Sequence record: OR498728.1
Length of the DNA: 64,000 bases
Strand: one strand, 5' to 3'
Source of the DNA: Escherichia phage ZX4221
The translations under genes and the position numbers were made by a program. Shown here piece by piece: positions 3,715 through 17,146 of the stretch (positions within the stretch are counted from its first letter, which is position 1; each line of letters begins with the position of its first letter). The notes beneath the pieces are model-generated. The model was not told where the DNA came from. It saw nothing but the letters and a program-made list of their open reading frames with translations, and did not search any database.

Positions 3715-4379
3715 TCTTTCACCATAGCATTTCTGAACTGACGTTGAGTTTCTCTTGTAATTTCGTCTGGAGTAAACCCTGCTTTCAGCATATCTCTGAA
3801 AAGAACTTCTAAGTGATTCTTTTCAATGATGTAAATTGCATTCTGCACAGATGTTTTAAGTTCCTTCAGGTCACTGCTAATTTCTTCGCACTTGTTGACA
3901 ATCTCTGTATCAACTTTCTTAAAGACTGGCATGGTATATCTACGACCACCATTAGCAGCATCCATGAAAAATTTAAAAGATTCCTCAGAGTCCTTTAAAG
4001 CAATCCCGATAAAGTCCTTGTAAGCACCTGTGAAAGCTAAAGACTCAATCTCAGCAGTTGAGTAAACAGTTCCTGCACACAGTCTTGCAGAGGTACTAAA
4101 TGTGTAGCTTTGTGTTATGTCAAAGTCTAAGTTCTTCAGTGGTCGAAAATAAACTGTGCCAGTATGTGAGACATGTGTTACAACAGCCTCCACACTCTTT
4201 GAAGGGTTCTGTTTAACATACAGGATAATTTTATCGTGTTCTTTCACTTTAGGCATATCTATTCTCCGGAAACTAAAAAAGGGAACTACCTCTCGATAGC
4301 TCCCATCATAGTTAATATTGTATACTCGGTCAAGAGTATTTTTTAGGCAGTAATGCGCTACGCTTGTTGCTCTCTTCAC
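3711..4379 (-). CDS. hypothetical protein (222 aa)
   Basis: ORF-track ORF in leftward operon. Confidence 0.5.
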   Translation of the reverse strand: MKRATSVAHYCLKNTLDRVYNINYDGSYREVVPFFSFRRIDMPKVKEHDKIILYVKQNPSKSVEAVVTHVSHTGTVYFRPLKNLDFDITQSYTFSTSARLCAGTVYSTAEIESLAFTGAYKDFIGIALKDSEESFKFFMDAANGGRRYTMPVFKKVDTEIVNKCEEISSDLKELKTSVQNAIYIIEKNHLEVLFRDMLKAGFTPDEITRETQRQFRNAMVKE

Positions 4380-10237: not shown

Positions 10238-10267
10238 TTGACAGACTCTACAAAGTTACTCTAAAGT
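10238..10267 (+). promoter_or_regulatory. Possible sigma70-like promoter
   Basis: TTGACA at 10238, 17-18 nt spacer, weak -10 (TAAAGT). Confidence 0.3.
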
Positions 10268-10306: not shown

Positions 10307-11722
10307 ATGAGCGAATTATTTAAACATGCGCACCTTCATGCAGGTCGAACTGAAAATGGTGCTGTAAACCATACTTCATCAATGTCTGCTCTGGTAGACT
10401 TCTACAAAGCCGCTGGCTCAAGCCGTAGCAATGTAGAAATCTTACCAGACCTGTTCTACAAAGCTTTGCGTGAGGATGTTGATGTTGCAGTTCGTATTTT
10501 ACTGCATATGCGAGATGTACGAGAAGGTATGGGTGAGCGTAAAGCTTTCCGAACTGTTTTACTTCAAGCGATTGAAGATAAGGTTTTAGAACCTACACAG
10601 GTTCTTCGCATTATGGATAAGATTGCAGAGCTTGGTCGTTTTGATGACTTCAAAATCTTCGTAGGTACTCGTTTTGAGACAGATGCCTTCAAACATTTAG
10701 AAGCAGCATTACTAGACCCTGCAACAGCAGGTTTAGCGGCTAAGTGGTTACCACGAGTAAAACCACGCCACAAACAGTTTGTAAAACGTTTCTGTAAGTT
10801 TGCAAACTTAAGTGAGAAGGAGTATCGCACACTGTTATCTGCACTGTCCGATACGGTTGAGCAAAAAATCTCTGCTAATGAGTTTGGTAAGATTGACTAC
10901 AGCAAGATTCCTTCACTCGCTGCTGCACGTTACCAAAAGCTCTTTAACCGTAAAGATGGTGAACGTTACAAAGCTTATATCGAGTCACTCTCAAAGGGTG
11001 AGGCTAAGATTAACGCTGGTGCTGTTTACCCATACGATGTGATTAAATCTATCAAGTATGGTAATGCAGGTGTTGCTAATGAGCAGTGGAAAGCACTACC
11101 AAACTGGATGGCAGAGGGTGAAAACATCTTGTGTATGACTGATGTTTCAAGCTCAATGTCTTGGGTGAATCTTGGTTCAATCACTGCCCTTGATATTGGC
11201 GTATCACTTGCCTTGTATGTAGCAGAACGCAATACAGGTTGCTTTAAGAATGAGTTAATGGTTTATTCAACAAACCCTCACTTCATCGAACTGAGTGGTG
11301 ATTTGAGAAACCGTCACCGTCAGGTAATGCGTCATGTTGAATATGGTTCAACTAACTTACAAGCAGCTTTTGACCGCATTCTTGAAATAGGTAAGAGAAA
11401 CAACTTGACTCAGAAAGATATGCCAAGTAAGCTTATTATCTTCTCTGATATGGAGTTTAATCAGGTTGATGGTGCAAATGGTCGTACAAACTTTGAAGCA
11501 ATTCAGAGTAAGTACAAAAAAGCTGGATACGAAATGCCACAACTAGTATTCTGGTACTTAGCAAACCGTAATGGTACTTGCGAAGTATCTGTTAAAGATA
11601 ATGGTGTAGCAATGGTATCAGGGTTCTCTCCAGCCACTTTAAAAGCTCTGCTTGGTGGTGAGAAGTTTGACCCAATCAACGTAATGCTCAAAGCAGTAAT
11701 GGTTGACCGTTACATCTGGTAA
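10307..11722 (+). CDS. vWA (MIDAS) domain protein, putatively Ro60/TROVE-like RNA-binding protein
   Basis: 471 aa; C-terminal half has MIDAS-like TDVSSSM ... GSTN ... FSDME; N-terminal TENGAV...ALVDFYKAAGSSR resembles the start of TROVE domains from memory; good RBS; gene is certain, TROVE assignment is inference. Confidence 0.6.
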   Translation: MSELFKHAHLHAGRTENGAVNHTSSMSALVDFYKAAGSSRSNVEILPDLFYKALREDVDVAVRILLHMRDVREGMGERKAFRTVLLQAIEDKVLEPTQVLRIMDKIAELGRFDDFKIFVGTRFETDAFKHLEAALLDPATAGLAAKWLPRVKPRHKQFVKRFCKFANLSEKEYRTLLSALSDTVEQKISANEFGKIDYSKIPSLAAARYQKLFNRKDGERYKAYIESLSKGEAKINAGAVYPYDVIKSIKYGNAGVANEQWKALPNWMAEGENILCMTDVSSSMSWVNLGSITALDIGVSLALYVAERNTGCFKNELMVYSTNPHFIELSGDLRNRHRQVMRHVEYGSTNLQAAFDRILEIGKRNNLTQKDMPSKLIIFSDMEFNQVDGANGRTNFEAIQSKYKKAGYEMPQLVFWYLANRNGTCEVSVKDNGVAMVSGFSPATLKALLGGEKFDPINVMLKAVMVDRYIW

Positions 11723-11730
11723 AAAGTTTA

Positions 11731-11768
11731 AAAAGGGTATTGACAATGTGTTTAATACCCTTTAATAT
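11731..11768 (+). promoter_or_regulatory. Sigma70-like promoter for the tRNA array, embedded in a hairpin
   Basis: TTGACA 11740-45, 17 nt spacer, TAATAT 11763-68; flanked by 9 bp inverted repeat AAAGGGTAT/ATACCCTTT. Confidence 0.55.
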
Positions 11769-11830
11769 GTTCTACATAGAAACGAAATGAGAGCTTTTCT
11801 AAGATACTGAAAAATATTTTAAAAAAGTTC

Positions 11831-11860
11831 TTGACAACCACTAAAAAATAATGTTAAAGT
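11831..11860 (+). promoter_or_regulatory. Possible second promoter upstream of first tRNA
   Basis: TTGACA at 11831-36 with weak -10 about 17-18 nt downstream. Confidence 0.3.
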
Positions 11861-11886: not shown

Positions 11887-11963
11887 CTCTGTTTAGCTCA
11901 GCTTGGTAGAGCGTTCCGTTTGGGGCGGTAAGGCCGGAGGTTCAAGTCCTCCAACAGAGACCA
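11887..11963 (+). tRNA. tRNA-Pro (anticodon TGG)
   Basis: Hand-folded: acceptor CTCTGTT/AACAGAG, D-stem GCTC/GAGC, anticodon loop TTTGGGG, T-arm GGAGG-TTCAAGT-CCTCC, CCA encoded. Confidence 0.75.
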
Positions 11964-11970
11964 AATTAAT

Positions 11971-12048
11971 GTTCCAGTAGACAAAACGGTAAAGTCACCA
12001 CTCTTTCAAAGTGGATATTTGAGGGTTCAAATCCCTTCTGGAACGCCA
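11971..12048 (+). tRNA. tRNA-Glu (anticodon TTC)
   Basis: Acceptor GTTCCAG/CTGGAAC, anticodon stem CCACT/AGTGG with loop CTTTCAA, T-loop TTCAAAT, CCA encoded. Confidence 0.7.
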
Positions 12049-12055
12049 GTCTTGA

Positions 12056-12128
12056 CAGAAGACCAATTGCAGCAAACTTAATCTTATTCATCTGACACGA
12101 AATCGGACAAAGAAGAGATTTGGTCTGG
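12056..12128 (+). ncRNA. Stem-closed structured element A (CAGAAGACC ... GGTCTGG family), Y-RNA-like candidate
   Basis: 5' CAGAAGACCAA pairs with 3' TTGGTCTGG (7 bp); conserved 5' box CAGAAGACCnnnTnCAGCAA; inner hairpin AATCT/AGATT; directly follows tRNA-Glu. Confidence 0.4.
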
Positions 12129-12139
12129 TCATTAAGAAT

Positions 12140-12216
12140 TGCGGGTATAGAGAAAGGGCGTCTCACATGTCTCATTAGCATGGTATCGGCAGGTTCGACT
12201 CCTGCACCCGCCTCCA
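12140..12216 (+). tRNA. tRNA-Met (anticodon CAT), copy 1
   Basis: T-arm GCAGG-TTCGACT-CCTGC, acceptor TGCGGGT/ACCCGCC with mismatch at pair 1-72, anticodon loop CTCATTA; CCA encoded. Confidence 0.6.
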
Positions 12217-12222
12217 ATTTTG

Positions 12223-12283
12223 CAGAAGACCGTATTCAGCAACAAACTACTTTTTGCGGATAAAAGAAAAAAACACGGTCTGG
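12223..12283 (+). ncRNA. Stem-closed structured element B (same family)
   Basis: 5' CAGAAGACCGT pairs with 3' ACGGTCTGG (7 bp); same 5' box as element A. Confidence 0.4.
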
Positions 12284-12294
12284 CAATGTATTAA

Positions 12295-12371
12295 GGTTAG
12301 GAAGCACATAAGGTATGTGCGGTCGCCTGTTAAGCGAATGGCACAGGGTTCGAATCCCTGACTAACCGCCA
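12295..12371 (+). tRNA. tRNA-Asn (anticodon GTT)
   Basis: D-stem GCAC/GTGC, anticodon loop CTGTTAA, T-arm CAGGG-TTCGAAT-CCCTG, acceptor GGTTAGG/ACTAACC, CCA encoded. Confidence 0.7.
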
Positions 12372-12380
12372 AATTTAAAT

Positions 12381-12468
12381 GTGTCGTTATCCCGTAGATG
12401 GTAGCGGTGGGGACTGTAAATCCCTTGTCATTGAGACTCGGTAGGTTCGACTCCTACACGGCACACCA
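12381..12468 (+). tRNA. tRNA-Tyr (anticodon GTA), long variable arm
   Basis: 88 nt; acceptor GTGTCGT/ACGGCAC, anticodon stem GGGGA/TCCCT loop CTGTAAA, T-arm GTAGG-TTCGACT-CCTAC, CCA encoded. Confidence 0.7.
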
Positions 12469-12474
12469 AATAAA

Positions 12475-12552
12475 GGTTATGTAGTTTAATCTGGTTAAAA
12501 TACTCCCCTGTCACGGGAGATGATGAGGGTTCAAATCCCTTCGTAACCGCCA
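12475..12552 (+). tRNA. tRNA-Asp (anticodon GTC)
   Basis: Anticodon stem CTCCC/GGGAG perfect, loop CTGTCAC, T-loop TTCAAAT, acceptor GGTTATG/CGTAACC, CCA encoded. Confidence 0.75.
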
Positions 12553-12639
12553 AATTATAATAAGTATTTCAAGATGATGTTTTGAGAGGGCTATTTAGCC
12601 CCTCCCTTAAAGAGTTCTTACGAGTATTCTTTAAAGGAG

Positions 12640-12713
12640 CAGAAGACCAAATGCAGCAAGAATGTATGAAATTTCAAGCCAATTTAATTTTGAAAATTTA
12701 AACTTGGTCTGGC
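12640..12713 (+). ncRNA. Stem-closed structured element C (same family)
   Basis: 5' CAGAAGACCAA ... 3' TTGGTCTGG; inner hairpin AAATTTCAA/TTGAAATTT. Confidence 0.4.
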
Positions 12714-12725
12714 TCAACAAATTTA

Positions 12726-12857
12726 CAGAAGACCGTTTACAGCAAAACTTAAACAATCTATTTCTCCGGTAAAGAAAAGGCGAAGGTTCGATTCCTTCAC
12801 TCGGCAGATGTCGAGTTGGTGTAATGGTAGCACTTAAGATGATAAACAACGGTCTGG
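12726..12857 (+). ncRNA. Stem-closed structured element D enclosing a circularly permuted tRNA-like module; Y-RNA (YrlA-type) candidate
   Basis: Outer 8 bp stem AGACCGTT/AACGGTCT; inside, in order: anticodon-like arm TTTCT-CCGGTAA-AGAAA, T-arm GAAGG-TTCGATT-CCTTC, ACTCGGC-A-GAT-GTCGAGT acceptor hairpin, D-arm GTGT-AATGGTA-GCAC. Confidence 0.5.
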
Positions 12858-12860
12858 TAA

Positions 12861-12999
12861 TTATCTTTGTAGATAAGTTATTAAGCTTCCCTGTGAGTAT
12901 GCGACCACAAAGGTGAAAGGGTAGATTCTAGATTTAACCCGAAAAGACACATCGCTACAGACCTTAAGCAAGTCTGGGTAGCTTATCTACAAAGATAAT
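12861..12999 (+). ncRNA. Structured element bounded by a perfect 17 bp inverted repeat
   Basis: TTATCTTTGTAGATAAG (12861-77) and its exact reverse complement (12983-99) enclose ~105 nt with internal hairpins. Confidence 0.4.
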
Positions 13000-13004
13000 T
13001 TAAT

Positions 13005-13080
13005 GGAAGTGTAGCAGAATGGTGATGCGGCAGACTTTTAATCTGACAGGCGATGGGTTCGAATCCCTCCACTTCTACCA
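13005..13080 (+). tRNA. tRNA-Lys (anticodon TTT)
   Basis: Acceptor GGAAGTG/CACTTCT, anticodon loop CTTTTAA, T-loop TTCGAAT with imperfect T-stem ATGGG/CCCTC, CCA encoded. Confidence 0.6.
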
Positions 13081-13084
13081 ATAT

Positions 13085-13161
13085 GGTTCAGTCGCAGATA
13101 AGGTAATGCAGGGGTTTCATAAGCCCTATGAATGTGGGTTCGATTCCCATCTGAACCTCCA
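13085..13161 (+). tRNA. tRNA-Met (anticodon CAT), copy 2 (initiator, elongator or Ile-lysidine not resolved)
   Basis: Acceptor GGTTCAG/CTGAACC perfect, anticodon stem GGGGT/GCCCT loop TTCATAA, T-arm GTGGG-TTCGATT-CCCAT, CCA encoded. Confidence 0.7.
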
Positions 13162-13162
13162 A

Positions 13163-13238
13163 GCTGGTATAGTTAAGAAGGTTATAACACTCCCCTGATA
13201 AGGGAACATCGGTGGTTCGATTCCACCTACCAGTACCA
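13163..13238 (+). tRNA. tRNA-Ile (anticodon GAT)
   Basis: D-stem GTTA/TAAC, anticodon loop CTGATAA, T-arm GGTGG-TTCGATT-CCACC, acceptor GCTGGTA/TACCAGT, CCA encoded. Confidence 0.7.
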
Positions 13239-13253
13239 ATTCCAATAAAGTTG

Positions 13254-13282
13254 TTGACATTGAGATGTGACCACTTTATAGT
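13254..13282 (+). promoter_or_regulatory. Internal sigma70-like promoter within tRNA array
   Basis: TTGACA 13254-59, 17 nt spacer, TATAGT 13277-82. Confidence 0.55.
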
Positions 13283-13574
13283 AACTAAAATACTTCATAA
13301 TATGTATAATTCAAACACCAATACATGAGTGTTAGACGTAACACAATGTGGGGAAATTTGTTGTACATATTCTGAATAGTTTTCGTTGCGTAGCGTCTAT
13401 TTTGCAAACTTAAAATAAATGCAAACGACAATGTTTTTCTGGCAGTAGCTTGATAGGCTAAACACCAGTGAGGTCTTCCAACCCCTCATCAAAGAATTTG
13501 GCGTACTCGCCCACGGTATGATTAATAAGGTGGGCATCTTTAAGGGCTTTTTAAGAGAGTCTTTAAAGATTAAT

Positions 13575-13651
13575 GCACCCTTAGTTCAACTGGACAGAGC
13601 AAATGACTTCTAATCATTGAGTTACAGGTTCGAATCCTGTAGGGTGTGCCA
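13575..13651 (+). tRNA. tRNA-Arg (anticodon TCT)
   Basis: Anticodon stem AATGA/TCATT perfect, loop CTTCTAA, T-arm ACAGG-TTCGAAT-CCTGT, acceptor GCACCCT/AGGGTGT, CCA encoded. Confidence 0.75.
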
Positions 13652-13793
13652 AATAGTTAGCAGATTGCTTAGACGACCTTATCGGGTCTCCGTGTAAGGA
13701 GGTGGTCTGTATCTCATGTTTTCCAGAACATGTAAATAATCTGAGAAGGGGCTTTACAGTGTTGCGAAAATACGGTAAGCTTCGAATTATAGT

Positions 13794-13876
13794 GTGGGAC
13801 GATGTTAAGACTCTAAGGCATGAGCAACGGCCTCCAAAACCGTTTCAAAGGGGTTCAACTCCTCCGTCCCATGCCA
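13794..13876 (+). tRNA. tRNA-Trp-like (anticodon CCA) with atypical extended D-region
   Basis: Acceptor GTGGGAC/GTCCCAT, anticodon arm ACGGC-CTCCAAA-ACCGT, T-loop TTCAACT, CCA encoded; about 8 extra nt between acceptor and D-stem, so canonical fold not achieved by hand. Confidence 0.4.
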
Positions 13877-13889
13877 AAGTCTTATTAGG

Positions 13890-13977
13890 GGTAGGTAGCG
13901 GCTAATGGTAGCCAAACTGTCTTGAAAACAGTTGCCACTGTAGAGATACGGTGAGGGTTCGACTCCTTTACTTACCG
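13890..13977 (+). tRNA. tRNA-Ser (anticodon TGA), long variable arm, CCA not encoded
   Basis: Acceptor GGTAGGT/ACTTACC, 3 bp D-stem, anticodon stem ACTGT/ACAGT perfect with loop CTTGAAA, ~20 nt variable arm, T-loop TTCGACT. Confidence 0.6.
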
Positions 13978-14235
13978 CCTAATAAGATTTTACACCGTCC
14001 ATGCTTGCTCGCATTTTCGGTTTATCCCTCGTGTATTGTCGTACACACTGATAAAGCACCTAGTAGGTGTCACGGAGAAGAGATAATATCAAGCTCTCCA
14101 AAGGTTCTAGTCACCGGATTGAACAAGACTATGCAAAGACCTAAATAGGTCTTTTTAGAGGGCTTCTAAGGTTATTACAGCTTGTTGTGGAACCTTGTTG
14201 CTTAGGTTCTTAGAAGTTCTCTAAAAAGATTTAAT

Positions 14236-14312
14236 GCACCTATAGCCCAACTGGTAGAGGCAGCAGACTTAGAATCTGCTCAGTGTGAGTTCGAATCTCT
14301 CTAGGTGTACCA
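14236..14312 (+). tRNA. tRNA-Leu-type anticodon TAG, class I (short variable arm) architecture
   Basis: 77 nt; acceptor GCACCTA/TAGGTGT, anticodon stem GCAGA/TCTGC perfect, loop CTTAGAA, 5 nt variable loop, discriminator A, CCA encoded. Confidence 0.6.
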
Positions 14313-14319
14313 AATTAAT

Positions 14320-14395
14320 GCAGGTGTAGCAAAATGGTTATGCGGCTGACTCTTAATCAGTAAGACGATGGGTTCAATTCCCTCCACCTGTACCA
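14320..14395 (+). tRNA. tRNA-Lys (anticodon CTT)
   Basis: Paralog of tRNA-Lys(TTT): acceptor GCAGGTG/CACCTGT, anticodon loop CTCTTAA, T-loop TTCAATT with same imperfect T-stem, CCA encoded. Confidence 0.6.
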
Positions 14396-14401
14396 AACAT
14401 T

Positions 14402-14477
14402 GGGGATGTAGTTTACATGGTTAAAACATAAGTTTTGCAAACTTAAGTACAGGGTTCAATTCCCTGCTTCTCCACCA
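14402..14477 (+). tRNA. tRNA-Ala (anticodon TGC)
   Basis: G3:U70 wobble pair present in acceptor stem; anticodon stem TAAGT/ACTTA perfect, loop TTTGCAA; T-arm CAGGG-TTCAATT-CCCTG; CCA encoded. Confidence 0.75.
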
Positions 14478-14483
14478 ATTAGT

Positions 14484-14558
14484 GCATCCATAGTTTAAAC
14501 GGGAAAATTACAGTCTTCCAAACTGAGGTTGAGGGTTCGATTCCCTCTGGATGCTCCA
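14484..14558 (+). tRNA. tRNA-Gly (anticodon TCC)
   Basis: Acceptor GCATCCA/TGGATGC perfect, anticodon loop CTTCCAA, T-arm GAGGG-TTCGATT-CCCTC, CCA encoded. Confidence 0.75.
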
Positions 14559-14565
14559 AATTAAT

Positions 14566-14641
14566 GCTCCTATCGTATAATTGGCTATTACGGTTGCCTT
14601 GTAAGCAACTTATCAGGGTTCGAATCCTTGTGGGAGCACCA
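14566..14641 (+). tRNA. tRNA-Thr (anticodon TGT)
   Basis: Anticodon stem GTTGC/GCAAC perfect, loop CTTGTAA, T-arm CAGGG-TTCGAAT-CCTTG, acceptor GCTCCTA/TGGGAGC, CCA encoded. Confidence 0.75.
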
Positions 14642-14645
14642 ATTC

Positions 14646-14731
14646 AGAGGTCAAGTGAAAGACCGCTGGTGTCAACTGAAGACCGTAACAAATTCCACGG
14701 AGTTGAGTTAGCGGCACAACTTCAGACCTCT
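14646..14731 (+). ncRNA. Structured element E, divergent relative of the CAGAAGACC family
   Basis: Outer stem AGAGGTC/GACCTCT; contains CTGAAGACCGTAACAAATT resembling the family 5' box; nested stems CCGCT/AGCGG and CTGAAG/CTTCAG. Confidence 0.3.
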
Positions 14732-14736
14732 TTCAT

Positions 14737-14811
14737 ACTCGCTTAGTTTATATGGTAAAACATCACCCTTACAAGATGGAGAAAAAGGTTCAAGTCCTTT
14801 AGTGAGTACCA
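14737..14811 (+). tRNA. tRNA-Val (anticodon TAC)
   Basis: D-stem GTTT/AAAC, anticodon loop CTTACAA, T-arm AAAGG-TTCAAGT-CCTTT, acceptor ACTCGCT/AGTGAGT, CCA encoded. Confidence 0.7.
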
Positions 14812-14812
14812 T

Positions 14813-14890
14813 GTTCCAGTATCCCAATTGGCAGAGGATGCAAGCTCAAACCTTGTACTAGTGACGGTTCGAATCCGTCTTGGAACACCA
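14813..14890 (+). tRNA. tRNA-Leu-type anticodon CAA, class I (short variable arm) architecture
   Basis: 78 nt; acceptor GTTCCAG/TTGGAAC, anticodon stem GCAAG/CTTGT, loop CTCAAAC, ~6 nt variable loop, T-arm GACGG-TTCGAAT-CCGTC, discriminator A, CCA encoded. Confidence 0.55.
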
Positions 14891-14895
14891 ATTTT

Positions 14896-14971
14896 GCAGG
14901 ATTAGTTCAAATGGATAGAGCAACAGTCTACGAAGCTGTTAATAGGGGTTCGAATCCCTTATCCTGCGCCA
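14896..14971 (+). tRNA. tRNA-Arg (anticodon ACG)
   Basis: Acceptor GCAGGAT/ATCCTGC perfect, D-stem GTTC/GAGC, anticodon loop CTACGAA, T-loop TTCGAAT, CCA encoded. Confidence 0.75.
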
Positions 14972-14989
14972 GATAAGTAAGAGGAATTT

Positions 14990-15232
14990 ATGCAAACATT
15001 AATCGTCGTTGAACATGAAAATTCCAATAGTATTGAGTTTGTAAGGGTTCCCACTATAGATACCCACATTTTCTTGAAAGTCGGATGGGGATGTGACCCA
15101 ATAAAAGTAGAAAATTTTATTGGTCATTACTTTGGTGGAAGACAACTTAAAAGCGTCAATTTTGAGACAATGTTACCAGAAAACTCAGAAACAAATAATA
15201 ATGTTTATCTCCTTACGAGGATTAGACAATGA
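14990..15232 (+). CDS. hypothetical protein inside tRNA array (80 aa)
   Basis: AAGAGGA Shine-Dalgarno 6 nt before ATG; stop overlaps next start (ATGA). Confidence 0.45.
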   Translation: MQTLIVVEHENSNSIEFVRVPTIDTHIFLKVGWGCDPIKVENFIGHYFGGRQLKSVNFETMLPENSETNNNVYLLTRIRQ

Positions 15233-15786
15233 GATATCTGAAGTATGCTTCATGGATTTTCCTAGCTTTGTTAGACCCATTGGCAGCAACCTTAGCAGTT
15301 ATCTTAGCACCCTTTGTAGTCCCATTCTACAGTGAGAAGAAAGGCCATCTACCTTTTGGATTCAGATGGATGGAGACATATGACAACCCGATTGATGGCG
15401 ATGAAGGTCATATGAAACGATGGGCTAAGATTAGAAAGATTGGTAAGCTCGGTGTCTATATGCAGAGAGTTGGCTGGCTCTGGAGAAACAAAGCTTATAA
15501 CTTCTCTTACCATGTGTTAGGAAGAGATGTAAAAGATGTTACTAAGTGGAAAGGTAATATCAACGTGAGTTCTGACCCTGAAGATAATCAGACAGGTTAT
15601 CTCCTAATGTGGAACAGTAATGCTTGGGGATTATTTGCTTTTATCCCATCAATTAAAATCTTTGGTAAACAATTCTACTGGAGAATTTATGTTGGATGGA
15701 AACTTAAAAGTGTTGTCCCAGAAGAAAGAGCATTCTCAAGGGAAAGAGTTATGTTGGCATTCTTTATTCATCCACTGAGAAAGTAA
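15229..15786 (+). CDS. hypothetical protein with hydrophobic N-terminus inside tRNA array (185 aa)
   Basis: ORF-track ORF; translationally coupled to 14990..15232; N-terminal WIFLALLDPLAATLAVILAPFVVPF looks membrane-associated. Confidence 0.5.
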   Translation: MRYLKYASWIFLALLDPLAATLAVILAPFVVPFYSEKKGHLPFGFRWMETYDNPIDGDEGHMKRWAKIRKIGKLGVYMQRVGWLWRNKAYNFSYHVLGRDVKDVTKWKGNINVSSDPEDNQTGYLLMWNSNAWGLFAFIPSIKIFGKQFYWRIYVGWKLKSVVPEERAFSRERVMLAFFIHPLRK

Positions 15787-15794
15787 AGATTTAA

Positions 15795-15870
15795 AGGGGA
15801 TTAGTTTACAAGGTTAAAACCTCGGTCTTTGAAATCGAAGAAGTTGGTTCAATTCCAACATCCCCCGCCA
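15795..15870 (+). tRNA. tRNA-Gln (anticodon TTG)
   Basis: Anticodon stem TCGGT/ATCGA, loop CTTTGAA, T-arm GTTGG-TTCAATT-CCAAC, A1-C72 mismatch at top of acceptor, discriminator G, CCA encoded. Confidence 0.65.
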
Positions 15871-15872
15871 AT

Positions 15873-15951
15873 GCTCCATTACTCCAATTGGCAGAGAGGC
15901 CAGACTTAAAATCTGTGTTATGTATCGGTTCGAATCCGATATGGAGTACCA
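15873..15951 (+). tRNA. tRNA-Leu-type anticodon TAA, class I (short variable arm) architecture
   Basis: 79 nt; acceptor GCTCCAT/ATGGAGT, anticodon stem CAGA/TCTG, loop CTTAAAA, ~7 nt variable loop, T-arm ATCGG-TTCGAAT-CCGAT perfect, discriminator A, CCA encoded. Confidence 0.55.
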
Positions 15952-15956
15952 AATTT

Positions 15957-16032
15957 AGCGGTATAGCATAACTGGCAATGCAGCAGTCTCTGAAGCTGTC
16001 TTATTAAGGTTCAAATCCTTATGCCGCTGCCA
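15957..16032 (+). tRNA. tRNA-Gln (anticodon CTG)
   Basis: Acceptor AGCGGTA/TGCCGCT, D-stem GCAT/ATGC, anticodon loop CTCTGAA, T-arm TAAGG-TTCAAAT-CCTTA, discriminator G, CCA encoded. Confidence 0.65.
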
Positions 16033-16063
16033 CTTCTAAGGGTTCTTACGAGAGTCCTTAAAT

Positions 16064-16139
16064 GTGGCCTTATCATAAATGGTAATGACCCATGCTGTGA
16101 ACATGGTCTATACGGGTTCAAATCCCGTAGGTCACCCCA
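16064..16139 (+). tRNA. tRNA-His (anticodon GTG)
   Basis: Anticodon stem CCATG/CATGG perfect, loop CTGTGAA, D-stem TCAT/ATGA, T-arm ACGGG-TTCAAAT-CCCGT, discriminator C; no encoded G-1 (preceding base is T). Confidence 0.7.
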
Positions 16140-16145
16140 ATTTAT

Positions 16146-16221
16146 AGTCCAAGTAGCTTATATGGTTAAAGCGCGTGTCTGAAAAACATGAGAAGAGGGT
16201 TCAAATCCCACTGGACTACCA
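16146..16221 (+). tRNA. tRNA-Phe (anticodon GAA), irregular acceptor/linker geometry
   Basis: Anticodon stem CGTGT/ACATG, loop CTGAAAA, D-stem GCTT/AAGC, T-loop TTCAAAT; acceptor pairs only as 6 bp or with a 4 nt linker to the D-stem; boundaries uncertain. Confidence 0.55.
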
Positions 16222-16237
16222 ATTTCAAAGGTGCTTA

Positions 16238-16972
16238 ATGAAAGAGATGACAGAACAAGGTAAGGAGATTTTTAATCTCTTAAAAACCGGTAGAGGGTTT
16301 TCTAATCCCCTTATTACTGGTGCAGCAGTTCTCGGTGGAACCGTAGCTGCCTCTACATCACTTGTAAGCTCTATTAGCTCTGTAACAGACCCTACAATAA
16401 AGGATAAGCTTATTGCTGCTGGACTTACAACAGTTCTGCTTAACAGCTTTACAACGAGTCTGACAAGCACTACATCAACCACTAAGACACTGACAGATTA
16501 TGGTCAAAAGTCCATTGATGAGTTTTCATCACGTATGCAGGTAGCAAAAGGATATTCCAATGTTATGGGTGCAGCAGGAGAACAAGTCGGTTGTACACCA
16601 TTTAGTGGTATTATGGGTGTTGCTACAGAATATGGTCAAAAAGCTATTGACACAATTAACAGTGCACTAGATGGTGTTAATGATGTGTTAAGTGACTTAC
16701 AAGATGCTATTGATGAAGGTCTTGATACTATTTCTGATTTAGCTAACCAAGCTGTTAGCAAGATTAATGAAGGTATCTCGAAGATTACAGCTTATGCAGA
16801 TGAAGTTGTGCAGATGATTGAAGAAGAAGCTGCCCTTATTGCAGAGTACCTTAAAACGAATATCAATGGGTTCTTAGCAGGTATCTTACCAGACTGGTTT
16901 GATGATGCTTGTAAAACTGGTGTAATTGATACTATTGCAACACCAGAAATGAAGAACGCATTACAGAAATAA
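16238..16972 (+). CDS. hypothetical Ser/Thr-rich protein (244 aa)
   Basis: ORF-track ORF trimmed to first ATG with RBS (AAAGG) that does not overlap tRNA-Phe. Confidence 0.5.
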   Translation: MKEMTEQGKEIFNLLKTGRGFSNPLITGAAVLGGTVAASTSLVSSISSVTDPTIKDKLIAAGLTTVLLNSFTTSLTSTTSTTKTLTDYGQKSIDEFSSRMQVAKGYSNVMGAAGEQVGCTPFSGIMGVATEYGQKAIDTINSALDGVNDVLSDLQDAIDEGLDTISDLANQAVSKINEGISKITAYADEVVQMIEEEAALIAEYLKTNINGFLAGILPDWFDDACKTGVIDTIATPEMKNALQK

Positions 16973-16973
16973 T

Positions 16974-17066
16974 GGAAGATTAACCCTAAAAGGTAAGGGA
17001 GCAGTTTGCTAAACTGCCAGTAGCTGAGAAATCGGTGTACCAGTTCAAGTCTGGTATCTTCCTCCA
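16974..17066 (+). tRNA. tRNA-Ser (anticodon GCT), long variable arm
   Basis: 93 nt; acceptor GGAAGAT/ATCTTCC perfect, anticodon stem GCAGT/ACTGC perfect, loop TTGCTAA, T-arm ACCAG-TTCAAGT-CTGGT, CCA encoded. Confidence 0.75.
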
Positions 17067-17070
17067 ATTT

Positions 17071-17146
17071 GAATCCGTGACAGAAATGGCTATGTGCCTG
17101 TCTGCAAAACAGGTTTATAAGGGTTCGAGTCCCTTCGGATTCTCCA
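17071..17146 (+). tRNA. tRNA-Cys (anticodon GCA)
   Basis: Acceptor GAATCCG/CGGATTC perfect, anticodon stem CCTGT/ACAGG perfect, loop CTGCAAA, T-arm AAGGG-TTCGAGT-CCCTT, CCA encoded. Confidence 0.75.

What the first reader, a model, noticed from the sequence alone, without database searches (positions are those of the whole stretch)
12049..12860. Four paralogous elements bounded by conserved CAGAAGACC...GGTCTGG termini
Elements at 12056, 12223, 12640 and 12726 each begin (T/G)(T/G)(G/T)(A/G)CAGAAGACC-nnn-T-n-CAGCAA and end GGTCTGG, with a 7-8 bp terminal stem (AGACCnn/nnGGTCT) whose three variable bases co-vary between copies (CAA/TTG versus CGT/ACG). That compensatory change argues for selection on RNA structure. 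Interiors differ, as in modular ncRNA families. A fifth, divergent relative lies at 14646.
Basis: seen in the sequence. Interest (0 to 1): 0.75.

Follow-up and report, generated by a model that had tools for sequence, protein, structure and literature searches.

The report
Y-RNA-like partners of phage Ro60-like protein
Four small structured RNA genes hidden in a Felix-O1-type phage's tRNA cluster belong to a widespread, undescribed RNA family that always sits beside a Ro60-like protein gene and carries the same signature as the "Class I" RNAs thought to exist only in social amoebae.

Summary
Four elements (12059-12128, 12226-12283, 12643-12712, 12729-12857, + strand) share AAG-stem-U-N-CAGCAA ... 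stem-CUGG, and the stem bases co-vary. The window is a Felixounavirus. The elements lie in its tRNA operon, 340-1000 nt downstream of a 471-aa DUF2828/vWA protein whose predicted fold matches Ro60 over its full length.

The same RNA "handle" (G-closed 6-8 bp stem, UUACAGCAA box, C-UG end) occurs next to DUF2828 genes in 65 distant phage contigs and 80 bacterial or archaeal contigs. It is almost always on the gene's strand: 95 vs 4 and 64 vs 6 hits. A covariance model built only from non-Felix members recovers E2, E1 and E3 at E = 1.5e-7 to 1.5e-3.

Interiors are modular. E4 and many relatives carry a permuted tRNA-like domain (T arm, closed acceptor-like hairpin, D arm), as in bacterial YrlA Y RNAs.

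Best reading: these are Y-RNA-like ligands of a Ro60-like protein. Binding is inferred, not shown.

The handle also equals that of dictyostelid Class I RNAs. A model built only from amoeba RNAs finds the phage elements (best E = 1.6e-4).

The proposed fifth copy at 14646 is not a member.

The parts
10307..11722 (+). Gene for a 471-aa Ro60-like protein (Pfam DUF2828 + DUF7788/vWA; PHROG 850 'RNA-binding protein'); the proposed protein partner of the elements
   Evidence: Pfam and PHROG hits. The AlphaFold2 model has pLDDT 89. The Foldseek top 12 PDB hits are all Ro60, E 4.5e-8 to 2e-6, TM 0.55-0.66, over the full length. Invariant residues D279, S281, S283, T349 and D381 form a MIDAS-like DxSxS...T...D pattern.
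10238..10267 (+). Sigma-70-like promoter upstream of the Ro60-like gene (TTGACA-18-TAAAGT)
   Evidence: consensus scan only.
11740..11860 (+). Two consensus sigma-70-like promoters (11740-11768 and 11831-11860) heading the tRNA/ncRNA array
   Evidence: The array contains 26 tRNAs on the + strand between 11887 and 17146.
12059..12128 (+). Element E1 (70 nt). AAG 12059-12061; 5' stem strand 12060-12066; box UUGCAGCAA 12067-12075; 3' stem strand 12120-12126; end CUGG 12125-12128. Lies between tRNA-Glu and tRNA-Met
   Evidence: Model R2, built from non-Felix members, scores it 32.6 bits, E 1.1e-6, with exactly these ends.
12226..12283 (+). Element E2 (58 nt). Stem GACCGU 12228-12233 / ACGGUC 12275-12280; box CAGCAA 12237-12242; small internal hairpin and an A-rich 3' tract
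   Evidence: R2 scores 35.6 bits, E 1.5e-7. Rfam RF01414 scores 22.9 bits over the full model. The amoeba-only model R1 scores 18 bits.
12643..12712 (+). Element E3 (70 nt). Stem GACCAA 12645-12650 / UUGGUC 12704-12709; box CAGCAA 12654-12659; internal hairpin UUUCAA...UUGAAA
   Evidence: R2 scores 21.9 bits, E 1.5e-3. Also.
12729..12857 (+). Element E4 (129 nt). The same handle (stem 12731-12737 / 12848-12854; box 12740-12745) encloses a permuted tRNA-like domain: V-like hairpin 12761-12777, T arm 12782-12798 (GAAGG-UUCGAUU-CCUUC), closed acceptor-like hairpin 12799-12816, D arm 12819-12833 (GUGU-AAUGGUA-GCAC)
   Evidence: The minimum-free-energy fold gives this four-way layout. There is a partial Rfam tRNA match at 12749-12799 (22 bits). 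Among Felix-like phages the acceptor-like stem has three compensatory versions, while the T and D arms are invariant. Relatives with the same layout match Rfam YrlA at E 1e-5 to 4e-8.

Best explanation
The four elements are genes for small stable non-coding RNAs that act as the RNA subunits of a Ro60-like ribonucleoprotein. They are analogous to Y RNAs (bacterial YrlA and YrlB).

Proposed steps:
1. They are co-transcribed with the phage tRNAs from the promoters at 11740 and 11831. They are released when the flanking tRNAs are processed, then trimmed to AAG...CUG(G). This step is inferred.
2. The 5' and 3' ends pair into a 7-8 bp stem closed by an invariant G:C pair. The single-stranded U-N-CAGCAA box follows the 5' strand directly. 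Together they form a constant 'handle'. The structure is shown by covariation.
3. The handle is the docking site for the DUF2828/vWA Ro60-like protein encoded just upstream. This is inferred from strict genetic linkage, strand bias and the Ro60 fold.
4. The variable interior is an effector module. In E4 it mimics the tRNA elbow (T loop, D loop and acceptor-like helix). It could recruit or distract tRNA-binding enzymes, as the tRNA-like domain of YrlA is recognised by RNase P, TruB and DusA. E1-E3 carry small hairpins.
5. The ribonucleoprotein probably acts in RNA or tRNA surveillance or in anti-defence during infection. The orthologous protein of the Felixounavirus Bas63 (gp130) was reported to counter the 'ppl' defence system.
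For: Structure:
- Terminal-stem covariation over 82 distinct handles: 98% of cells paired against 60% in shuffles, covariation score 0.995 against 0.22. The flanking pair not required by the descriptor is 90% paired as AU, UA or GC.

Linkage to DUF2828 genes:
- In 65 phage loci with DUF2828 genes only 38-47% identical to the window's, the descriptor finds 95 elements on the gene strand and 4 on the opposite strand.
- 67 of 116 looser hits lie within 500 nt of the gene.
- 44 of 65 loci have at least one element within 2.5 kb, and 6 more have one with the box variant CNGCAA.
- In 80 bacterial or archaeal contigs the counts are 64 against 6.
- The background in 41 unrelated viral contigs is 2.8 per 100 kb per strand, against 12.2 on the gene strand.
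- The T5 tRNA region, which has no DUF2828 gene, has no element.

Membership of the window's copies:
- Model R2, built without any Felix sequence, ranks E2, E1 and E3 as the three best hits in 92 kb (E 1.5e-7, 1.1e-6, 1.5e-3) and E4's handle fifth.

Protein:
- The fold matches Ro60, with MIDAS-like invariant residues.
- The PhageMaP preprint independently reports that Bas63 gp130 is Ro60-like, lies directly upstream of the tRNAs and counters ppl. It only guesses that some annotated tRNAs might be Y RNAs.

tRNA mimicry:
- E4's order V, T, acceptor-like hairpin, D is the order described for YrlA.
- Relatives match Rfam YrlA at E = 1e-5, 8e-5 and 4e-8.

Direct hint of a protein-RNA link:
- In several phages the shortest handles sit immediately before, or overlap, the ribosome-binding site or start codon of the DUF2828 gene itself.
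Against: - There is no expression, end-mapping or binding data. I found no RNA-seq for this phage group.
- Folding energies of E1-E4 are not significantly better than shuffles (z -0.5 to -1.9), so the case rests on comparison between sequences.
- The handle lacks the GNCGAA(N)G / CGAA motif that marks Ro60 binding in known Y RNAs.
- E4 itself does not match Rfam YrlA, and its relatives stay below that family's gathering score (41 against 69 bits).
- The DUF2828 protein has no detectable sequence similarity to Ro60; the similarity is of fold only.
- About 15 of 65 distant loci showed no element with my descriptor.
- Many loci also hold tRNAs, so part of the linkage could reflect a shared 'RNA island'.
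Confidence: 0.68

Rival explanations
1. The elements are stable tRNA-mimic or decoy RNAs that act on their own. For example, they could soak up host tRNA-targeting nucleases or tRNA-binding enzymes. On this view they are linked to the DUF2828 gene only because both belong to a phage 'tRNA protection' island.
For: E4 and many relatives mimic the tRNA elbow. Some relatives enclose a nearly complete tRNA core (L143 8352-8413, tRNA model positions 5-66, 55.7 bits). 5 of 50 short relatives have anticodon-stem-loop-like hairpins, against 0.2 expected. The elements sit among tRNA genes.
Against: The invariant part of the family is the handle, not the mimic. E1-E3 and most short members show no tRNA similarity. 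Elements occur beside DUF2828 genes in loci with no tRNA detected (L093). They are absent from the T5 tRNA array. Handles lie in the DUF2828 mRNA leader in several phages.
Confidence: 0.14
2. The handles are cis-acting operator or processing sites rather than trans-acting RNAs. The DUF2828 protein, or a host RNase, binds them within the polycistronic transcript to control processing, stability or translation of the operon, including autoregulation of its own mRNA.
For: 37-45 nt handles abut or overlap the Shine-Dalgarno sequence or start codon of the DUF2828 gene in KVP40-like and other phages and in many Clostridia contigs. The Felix elements lie between tRNAs in one transcription unit.
Against: In the window the gene's own leader has no handle. 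The four elements lie downstream, each with an elaborate and conserved interior, including a 90-nt tRNA-like domain, which a simple operator would not need. There are multiple tandem copies with different interiors per genome.
Confidence: 0.1
3. They are miniature mobile elements or recombination sites bounded by terminal inverted repeats (AGACC.../...GGTCT), or decayed tRNA genes.
For: There are short inverted termini and four copies in 800 bp. E4 contains tRNA-like arms.
Against: The termini keep complementarity, not sequence, across the family. The box is strictly asymmetric and the strand bias is strict (95 to 4). The positions are syntenic in all Felix-like genomes, with no empty sites and no target duplications seen. 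The tRNA-like part is permuted (T, closed acceptor-like hairpin, D) and its closed stem shows compensatory changes, so it is under selection rather than decaying.
Confidence: 0.03

Closest known systems
Bacterial and phage Y RNAs: YrlA/YrlB (Rfam RF02553; Chen et al. 2014, PMC4201824) and Yrl1/Yrl2 of Thermus phage phiLo (PMC12135203)
   Same: Small RNAs encoded within a few kb of, and on the same strand as, a ring-shaped HEAT-repeat + vWA protein. The 5' and 3' ends pair into a stem next to a conserved motif. The second domain is modular, and in YrlA it is a permuted tRNA mimic in the order V, T, acceptor-like hairpin, D. There are several different RNAs per locus. Relatives of E4 match the YrlA model at E 1e-5 to 4e-8.
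   Different: The protein belongs to DUF2828/DUF7788, not TROVE, and resembles Ro60 only in fold. The RNA motif is U-N-CAGCAA after the 5' strand, with a G:C-closed stem and a CUG end. It is not the GNCGAA(N)G / CGAA motif. No element reaches the YrlA gathering score, and E4 does not match at all. The Felix copies are embedded in a tRNA operon.
Class I RNAs of dictyostelid social amoebae (Rfam RF01414; Kjellin et al. 2021, PMC7919456)
   Same: The constant part is identical. It starts with (A)AG and has a 6-7 bp terminal stem whose structure, not sequence, is conserved. The 5' G always pairs with the C of a 3' CUG(U). The (CC)UUACAGCAA motif follows the 5' strand directly. The rest is variable, often with an A-rich 3' tract, and the length is about 40-70 nt. 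Some phage members contain the full 11-nt CCUUACAGCAA (L095/L100/L105). Both groups have members with a T-arm-like GGUUCGAnUCC module (asu_can_20, ppa_can_99; L102 5854, L150 5619). Box variants such as CUGCAA and CCGCAA occur in both. A model built only from 40 amoeba RNAs finds the phage elements: 18 hits with E < 0.2, all on the gene strand, best 31.5 bits and E 1.6e-4. It finds nothing above 13 bits in 362 kb of control contigs.
   Different: Class I RNAs are eukaryotic genes with their own DUSE promoter and were reported as unique to Dictyostelia. Their only proven partner is the RRM protein Rnp1A/CIBP. No phage element reaches the Rfam gathering score (best 24.9 against 41.5 bits). The window's own copies score weakly with the amoeba model (E2 18 bits, E 0.38). 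I could not establish whether Dictyostelium encodes a DUF2828 protein.
Stable non-tRNA RNAs in phage tRNA clusters (T5 RNAI, RNAIII, RNAIV, RNA1, RNA2 as annotated in AY692264; T4 species 1 and 2 RNAs, the latter from my own knowledge)
   Same: Small RNAs of unknown function interspersed with phage tRNA genes and co-transcribed with them.
   Different: The T5 region has no DUF2828 gene and no handle by descriptor or by either model, so these are not the same family.

Membership tests
DUF2828-linked 'handle' RNA family (defined here) | G:C-closed 6-8 bp terminal stem, 1-3 nt linker, C-A-G-C-A-A box, and a 3' strand followed by (U/C/A)G | tested here: met
   All four window elements fit. They are the only good + strand hits in the 64-kb window.
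DUF2828-linked 'handle' RNA family (defined here) | Significant score with a covariance model built from other members only | tested here: met
   R2 (no Felix sequences): E2 35.6 bits, E 1.5e-7; E1 32.6 bits, E 1.1e-6; E3 21.9 bits, E 1.5e-3. E4 scores only 15 bits, E 0.15, because its long insertion is penalised.
DUF2828-linked 'handle' RNA family (defined here) | Within a few kb of, and on the same strand as, a DUF2828/DUF7788 gene | tested here: met
   The gene is at 10307-11722 (+). The elements lie 337-1135 nt downstream on the + strand.
Y RNA / YrlA (Rfam RF02553) | Encoded near, and on the same strand as, a Ro60 (TROVE-domain) ortholog | tested here: inconclusive
   The neighbour has a Ro60 fold but no TROVE Pfam match and no sequence similarity to Ro60.
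Y RNA / YrlA (Rfam RF02553) | Terminal stem carrying the Ro60-binding motif GNCGAA(N)G / CGAA | tested here: not met
   The stem is present, but the motif is AAG-stem-UNCAGCAA. There is no CGAA.
Y RNA / YrlA (Rfam RF02553) | tRNA-like domain in the order V, T arm, closed acceptor-like hairpin, D arm | tested here: met
   Met for E4 only. E1-E3 lack it, like YrlB.
Y RNA / YrlA (Rfam RF02553) | Score at or above the Rfam gathering threshold (69 bits) | tested here: not met
   E4 has no match at E <= 10. Relatives score 41.4, 38.2 and 26.7 bits.
Y RNA / YrlA (Rfam RF02553) | Physical binding to the Ro60-type protein | not testable with these tools
   This needs EMSA, pull-down or CLIP.
Dictyostelid Class I RNA (Rfam RF01414) | Start (A)AG and end CUG(U), with the 5' G paired to the 3' C, and a short terminal stem conserved in structure only | tested here: met
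   AAG...CUGG in all four elements. Stem covariation is shown.
Dictyostelid Class I RNA (Rfam RF01414) | 11-nt motif CCUUACAGCAA adjacent to the 5' stem strand | tested here: inconclusive
   The window copies have (A/G)(A/U)U(U/A/G)CAGCAA, which is 7-9 of 11 positions. Distant phage members have all 11.
Dictyostelid Class I RNA (Rfam RF01414) | Score at or above the Rfam gathering threshold (41.5 bits) | tested here: not met
   E2 22.9 bits, E4 12.8 bits, L105 element 24.9 bits. My amoeba-only model gives up to 31.5 bits for relatives and 18 bits for E2.
Dictyostelid Class I RNA (Rfam RF01414) | DUSE promoter about 60 nt upstream; dictyostelid genome | tested here: not met
   This is a phage operon with sigma-70-type promoters. 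The feature does not apply to bacteria.

The most novel reading that the evidence does not exclude
The phage and bacterial DUF2828-linked RNAs and the dictyostelid Class I RNAs are one ancient RNA family, recognised through the same handle (G:C-closed stem + UUACAGCAA + CUG) by Ro60-like DUF2828 proteins. On this view Class I RNAs are not an amoeba-specific invention tied to multicellularity. They would be the eukaryotic branch of a second Y-RNA-like ribonucleoprotein system, parallel to Ro60 and Y RNA. That system would span phages, bacteria, archaea, giant viruses and eukaryotes, and phages would use it as an anti-defence or tRNA-surveillance device.
Probability: 0.35. Interest if true: 0.9.

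Novelty: new variant of a known kind. Interest (0 to 1): 0.82.

Why it matters
1. It gives concrete RNA partners, with exact coordinates and a searchable signature, to a large orphan protein family (DUF2828 / PHROG 850). That family is common in tRNA-rich phages. It also occurs in plants and a cryptophyte, and a tardigrade-genome study reports it among mimivirus-like proteins. A recent genetic screen implicated one member, Bas63 gp130, in countering a bacterial defence system, but identified no RNA.
2. It extends the Ro60 and Y RNA principle to a second, sequence-unrelated protein and RNA pair: a ring protein plus a stem-handle RNA with a modular, often tRNA-like, effector domain. This suggests the architecture is far more general than thought.
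3. It connects that pair to dictyostelid Class I RNAs. These abundant RNAs have been known for 20 years without a mechanism and were believed to be lineage-specific. The connection turns an open question into a testable one: do DUF2828 proteins bind Class I RNAs?
4. Practically, these loci are unannotated in hundreds of GenBank phage genomes, and they sometimes attract spurious 'hypothetical protein' calls.

Tried and rejected
- Promoter reading of the 5' box. E1 has TTGACA just upstream, but no -10 is found, E3 has no -35-like hexamer, and distant members lack it altogether.
- Ribozyme motifs (hammerhead, hairpin, twister). I considered these from the sequence, and Rfam gave no support.
- My first idea that GGUCUGG/GACC was a strand-swapped copy of the metazoan Ro-binding helix UGGUCCGA/UUGACUA. 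I dropped it once the family consensus showed that only G...C-UG and the box are constant.
- Sequence-level links of the protein to Ro60: none by phmmer or by a profile against PDB.
- Rfam at gathering thresholds: only tRNAs.
- Fifth copy at 14646: rejected.
- Thermodynamic support: the z-scores of E1-E4 are unremarkable.
- Dictyostelium DUF2828 protein. A plant-like query written from memory retrieved real plant DUF2828 proteins. A representative search and cluster look-ups then reached only plants and a cryptophyte. All homology searches are now spent, so the question stays open.
- Avesson et al. 2011, which lists the four Class I RNA-binding proteins, is not in the library.
- No RNA-seq of Felix-like phages was found.
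- The anticodon-stem-loop mimicry idea holds for only 5 of 50 short members and not for the window's copies.
Full report
**1. What is there**

- The window is a Felixounavirus (Felix-O1-like myovirus), 98.8% identical to E. coli phage vB_EcoM_Shy over the region.
- The finding lies at the start of a 26-gene tRNA array on the + strand, 11887-17146.
- Exact CAGAAGACC occurs at 12056, 12223, 12640 and 12726. Each is followed 53-125 nt later by GGTCTGG.
- Reading the sequence and about 40 related contigs from IMG/VR gives a common unit: AAG, then a 5' stem strand (GACC + 2-3 variable bases), then U-N-CAGCAA, then a variable interior, then the complementary 3' strand, then CUGG.
- The refined coordinates are E1 12059-12128, E2 12226-12283, E3 12643-12712 and E4 12729-12857.
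That stretch shares only GAAGACCGU. It has no box and no 3' partner, and it is a separate, conserved hairpin (z = -2.9).

**2. The neighbour**

- The ORF 10307-11722 encodes 471 aa with Pfam DUF2828 + DUF7788 + a weak vWA match, and PHROG 850 'RNA-binding protein'. It lies 337 nt upstream of E1 on the same strand.
- Sequence searches against PDB found nothing.
- An AlphaFold2 model built from 40 homologues has pLDDT 89. Its twelve best Foldseek hits are all Ro60 structures (frog, Deinococcus, Thermus phage phiLo) over the full length, E 4.5e-8 to 2e-6 and TM 0.55-0.66.
- The invariant residues D279, S281, S283, T349 and D381 fit a MIDAS site.
- A 2024 preprint independently noted that the orthologous gp130 of the Felixounavirus Bas63 resembles Ro60, lies directly upstream of the tRNAs and counters the 'ppl' defence system. 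It only speculated that some annotated tRNAs might be Y RNAs.
- In GenBank records of this phage group the four elements carry no RNA annotation.

**3. The elements belong to a large family linked to this protein**

- I fetched 65 phage contigs whose DUF2828 protein is only 38-47% identical to the window's. I scanned them with a simple descriptor: a G:C-closed stem of at least 6 bp, a 1-3 nt linker, CAGCAA, and a 3' strand followed by (U/C/A)G.
- The scan gave 95 hits on the gene strand and 4 on the opposite strand.
- With a looser descriptor there were 116 hits against 18, and 8-17 in block shuffles. 67 of the 116 lie within 500 nt of the gene.
- 44 of 65 loci have an element within 2.5 kb. 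Six more have one with the box variant C-N-GCAA right after the stop codon.
- In 41 unrelated viral contigs the rate is 2.8 per 100 kb per strand, against 12.2, and those hits look like glutamine-codon repeats.
- A second, independent set of 80 bacterial or archaeal contigs with DUF2828 genes (33-42% identity) gave 64 hits against 6.
- The T5 tRNA region has many tRNAs and several annotated stable RNAs but no DUF2828 gene. It has no element. L093 has five elements and no tRNA. The link is therefore to the protein gene, not to tRNA arrays as such.
- Over 82 distinct handles the stem sequence is nearly free while pairing is kept. The pair flanking the invariant G:C, which the descriptor did not demand, is AU in 57, UA in 10, GC in 4, GU in 3 and unpaired in 8.
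- A covariance model built only from 41 non-Felix members (R2) ranks E2, E1 and E3 as the three best hits in the window plus the T5 control: 35.6, 32.6 and 21.9 bits, E 1.5e-7, 1.1e-6 and 1.5e-3. The ends match exactly those inferred above. E4's handle is fifth.

**4. Modular interiors and tRNA mimicry**

- Family members fall into size classes:
  - 37-72 nt with a small hairpin and often an A-rich 3' tract. E1-E3 are of this kind.
  - 88-137 nt with a T arm, a closed acceptor-like hairpin and a D arm. E4 is of this kind.
  - A few enclosing a tRNA core in normal order (L143 8352-8413, tRNA model positions 5-66, 55.7 bits).
  - A conserved 233-275 nt class of unknown nature (Rfam gave no credible match for it).
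- E4 folds into a four-way junction. The handle continues into a short helix that carries a V-like hairpin, a T arm (GAAGG-UUCGAUU-CCUUC), a 7-bp acceptor-like stem closed by a tetraloop, and a D arm (GUGU-AAUGGUA-GCAC).
- Among Felix-like phages the T and D arms are invariant. The closed stem exists in three compensatory versions: ACUCGGC/GUCGAGU, ACACG/CGUGU and ACCCUUC/GAAGGGU.
- This order (V, T, acceptor-like hairpin, D) is the one described for bacterial YrlA Y RNAs.
- Three relatives match Rfam YrlA at E = 1e-5, 8e-5 and 0.17, and one of these scores 4e-8 in a local search. All are below the gathering score. E4 itself does not match.

**5. Most likely mechanism**

- Shown: a structured RNA family with a constant handle and variable modules. 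It has strict genetic linkage and co-orientation with a Ro60-fold protein, and tRNA-elbow mimicry in one subclass.
- Inferred: the RNAs are cut out of the tRNA precursor. Consensus promoters lie at 11740 and 11831, and none is predicted at the boxes. The handle is the protein's docking site. The interior recruits or distracts other factors, as in Ro60-Y RNA-PNPase complexes.
- An extra hint of direct recognition: in KVP40-like phages, several other phages and many Clostridia contigs, a minimal 34-45 nt handle lies immediately before, or over, the Shine-Dalgarno sequence or start codon of the DUF2828 gene. This is the arrangement of an autoregulatory operator. The window's own gene leader has none.
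- I put 0.68 on 'RNA subunits of a Ro60-like ribonucleoprotein'.
- The rivals are protein-independent tRNA decoys (0.14), purely cis-acting operator or processing sites (0.10), and mobile or decayed elements (0.03).

**6. Comparison with known families**

- It works like a Y RNA but fails membership. The motif is not GNCGAA(N)G / CGAA, the protein is not a TROVE-domain protein by sequence, and Rfam thresholds are not met.
- The only non-tRNA Rfam family that aligns end to end with the elements is RF01414, the Class I RNA of Dictyostelium: E2 22.9 bits, E4 12.8 bits, and a distant element L105 7791-7848 at 24.9 bits.
- According to Kjellin et al. 2021, Class I RNAs have these features:
  - They start with AAG.
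  - They have a 6-bp terminal stem conserved in structure only, whose 5' G always pairs with the C of a 3' CUGU.
  - They carry the 11-nt motif CCUUACAGCAA right after the 5' strand.
  - They are otherwise variable, about 60 nt long, and were reported as unique to Dictyostelia.
- That is the phage handle, feature for feature. Some phage members contain the complete 11-mer.
- The published sequences include members with a T-arm-like module (asu_can_20, ppa_can_99) and box variants (CUGCAA, CCGCAA, CUACAA). These parallel the phage members.
- A covariance model built only from 40 Class I RNAs of six dictyostelid species (R1) was run on 843 kb of DUF2828 loci. It gave 18 hits with E < 0.2, all on the gene strand and all at descriptor-defined elements. 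The best is 31.5 bits, E 1.6e-4, and ten have E < 0.002.
- The same model gave nothing above 13 bits in 362 kb of unrelated viral contigs and nothing in T5.
- The window's own E2 scores only 18 bits (E 0.38) with this model, so the link is carried by the family, not by this phage alone.
- I could not establish whether Dictyostelium has a DUF2828 protein. Plants and a cryptophyte do, and a tardigrade-genome study mentions DUF2828 among mimivirus-like proteins.
- Shared ancestry, or at least a shared reader protein, is therefore plausible but unproven. I give it 0.35.

**7. Verdict**

- The finding is real and its interpretation is right.
- The elements are new members of a previously undescribed RNA family that behaves as a new variant of the Ro60 and Y RNA theme.
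- The cross-kingdom match to Class I RNAs makes it of high interest.
- The main weakness is the absence of any expression or binding data.

Noticed in passing
window 12859-13004 (+): An unannotated 146-nt stretch right after E4 folds into a 24-bp stem closing a three-way junction. The minimum free energy is -45 kcal/mol, z = -5.7, and 0 of 200 shuffles fold as well. No Rfam match. Probably another structured RNA of the tRNA operon.
   Followed up: partly
window 14126-14235 and 13440-13574 (+): Two more unannotated gaps in the tRNA array fold far better than shuffles (z = -4.1 and -3.1). A consensus promoter (TTGACA-17-TATAGT) sits at 13254-13282 inside the array. Weak tmRNA-like Rfam hits cover 13327-13574 (17-20 bits).
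   Followed up: partly
It shares only GAAGACCGU with E4.
   Followed up: yes
window 13796-13889 (+): A tRNA-like sequence (GGGACG...CGUCCC acceptor-like ends, GGGGUUCAACUCC T arm) that ARAGORN does not call. Rfam tRNA-Sec scores it 23 bits. It is possibly a degenerate or unusual tRNA.
   Followed up: no
L091 5965-6008, L092 5964-6008, L098 5950-5990, L132 5903-5947, L141 5908-5950; L189/L194/L207/L214/L215/L219 about 3866-3917: Minimal 34-45 nt handles lie immediately upstream of, or overlapping, the Shine-Dalgarno sequence or start codon of the DUF2828 gene itself. This suggests translational autoregulation by the protein.
   Followed up: partly
L095 7853-8113, L100 7472-7733, L105 7850-8113 and about 12 similar loci; L111, L123, L125, L137, L145, L146 just after the gene: A conserved 233-275 nt RNA enclosed by the same handle (box CAGCAA or CNGCAA) follows a short element directly downstream of DUF2828 genes in one phage clade. 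Rfam gives no credible match.
   Followed up: partly
short family members, e.g. L113 5869, L186 660, L169 3915, L170 5448: 5 of 50 short members contain a 5-bp stem with a 7-nt loop CUNNNAA (for example UCAAA-CUUUUAA-UUUGA). This resembles an anticodon stem-loop. The expectation from shuffles is 0.2. None of the window's copies has one.
   Followed up: partly
Supplement files 48 and 56 of PMC7919456: Two dictyostelid Class I RNAs (asu_can_20, ppa_can_99) contain a GGUUCGAnUCC T-arm-like hairpin. The authors' rejected out-group candidates include an Arabidopsis locus (ath_can_1, CM score 40: UGUUUUC-AUUACAGCAA...GAAAAC-UG). Plants encode DUF2828 proteins.
   Followed up: no
L237 (phage T5, AY692264 30287-33086): T5's tRNA region carries six annotated stable RNAs (RNAI, RNAIII, RNAIV, RNA1, RNA2, RNA2H) of unknown function. 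None has the handle.
   Followed up: yes
window 15229-15786 and 16175-16972 (+): Two protein genes of unknown function (DUF7338; DUF7217) are interleaved with the tRNA genes. They were not examined further.
   Followed up: no
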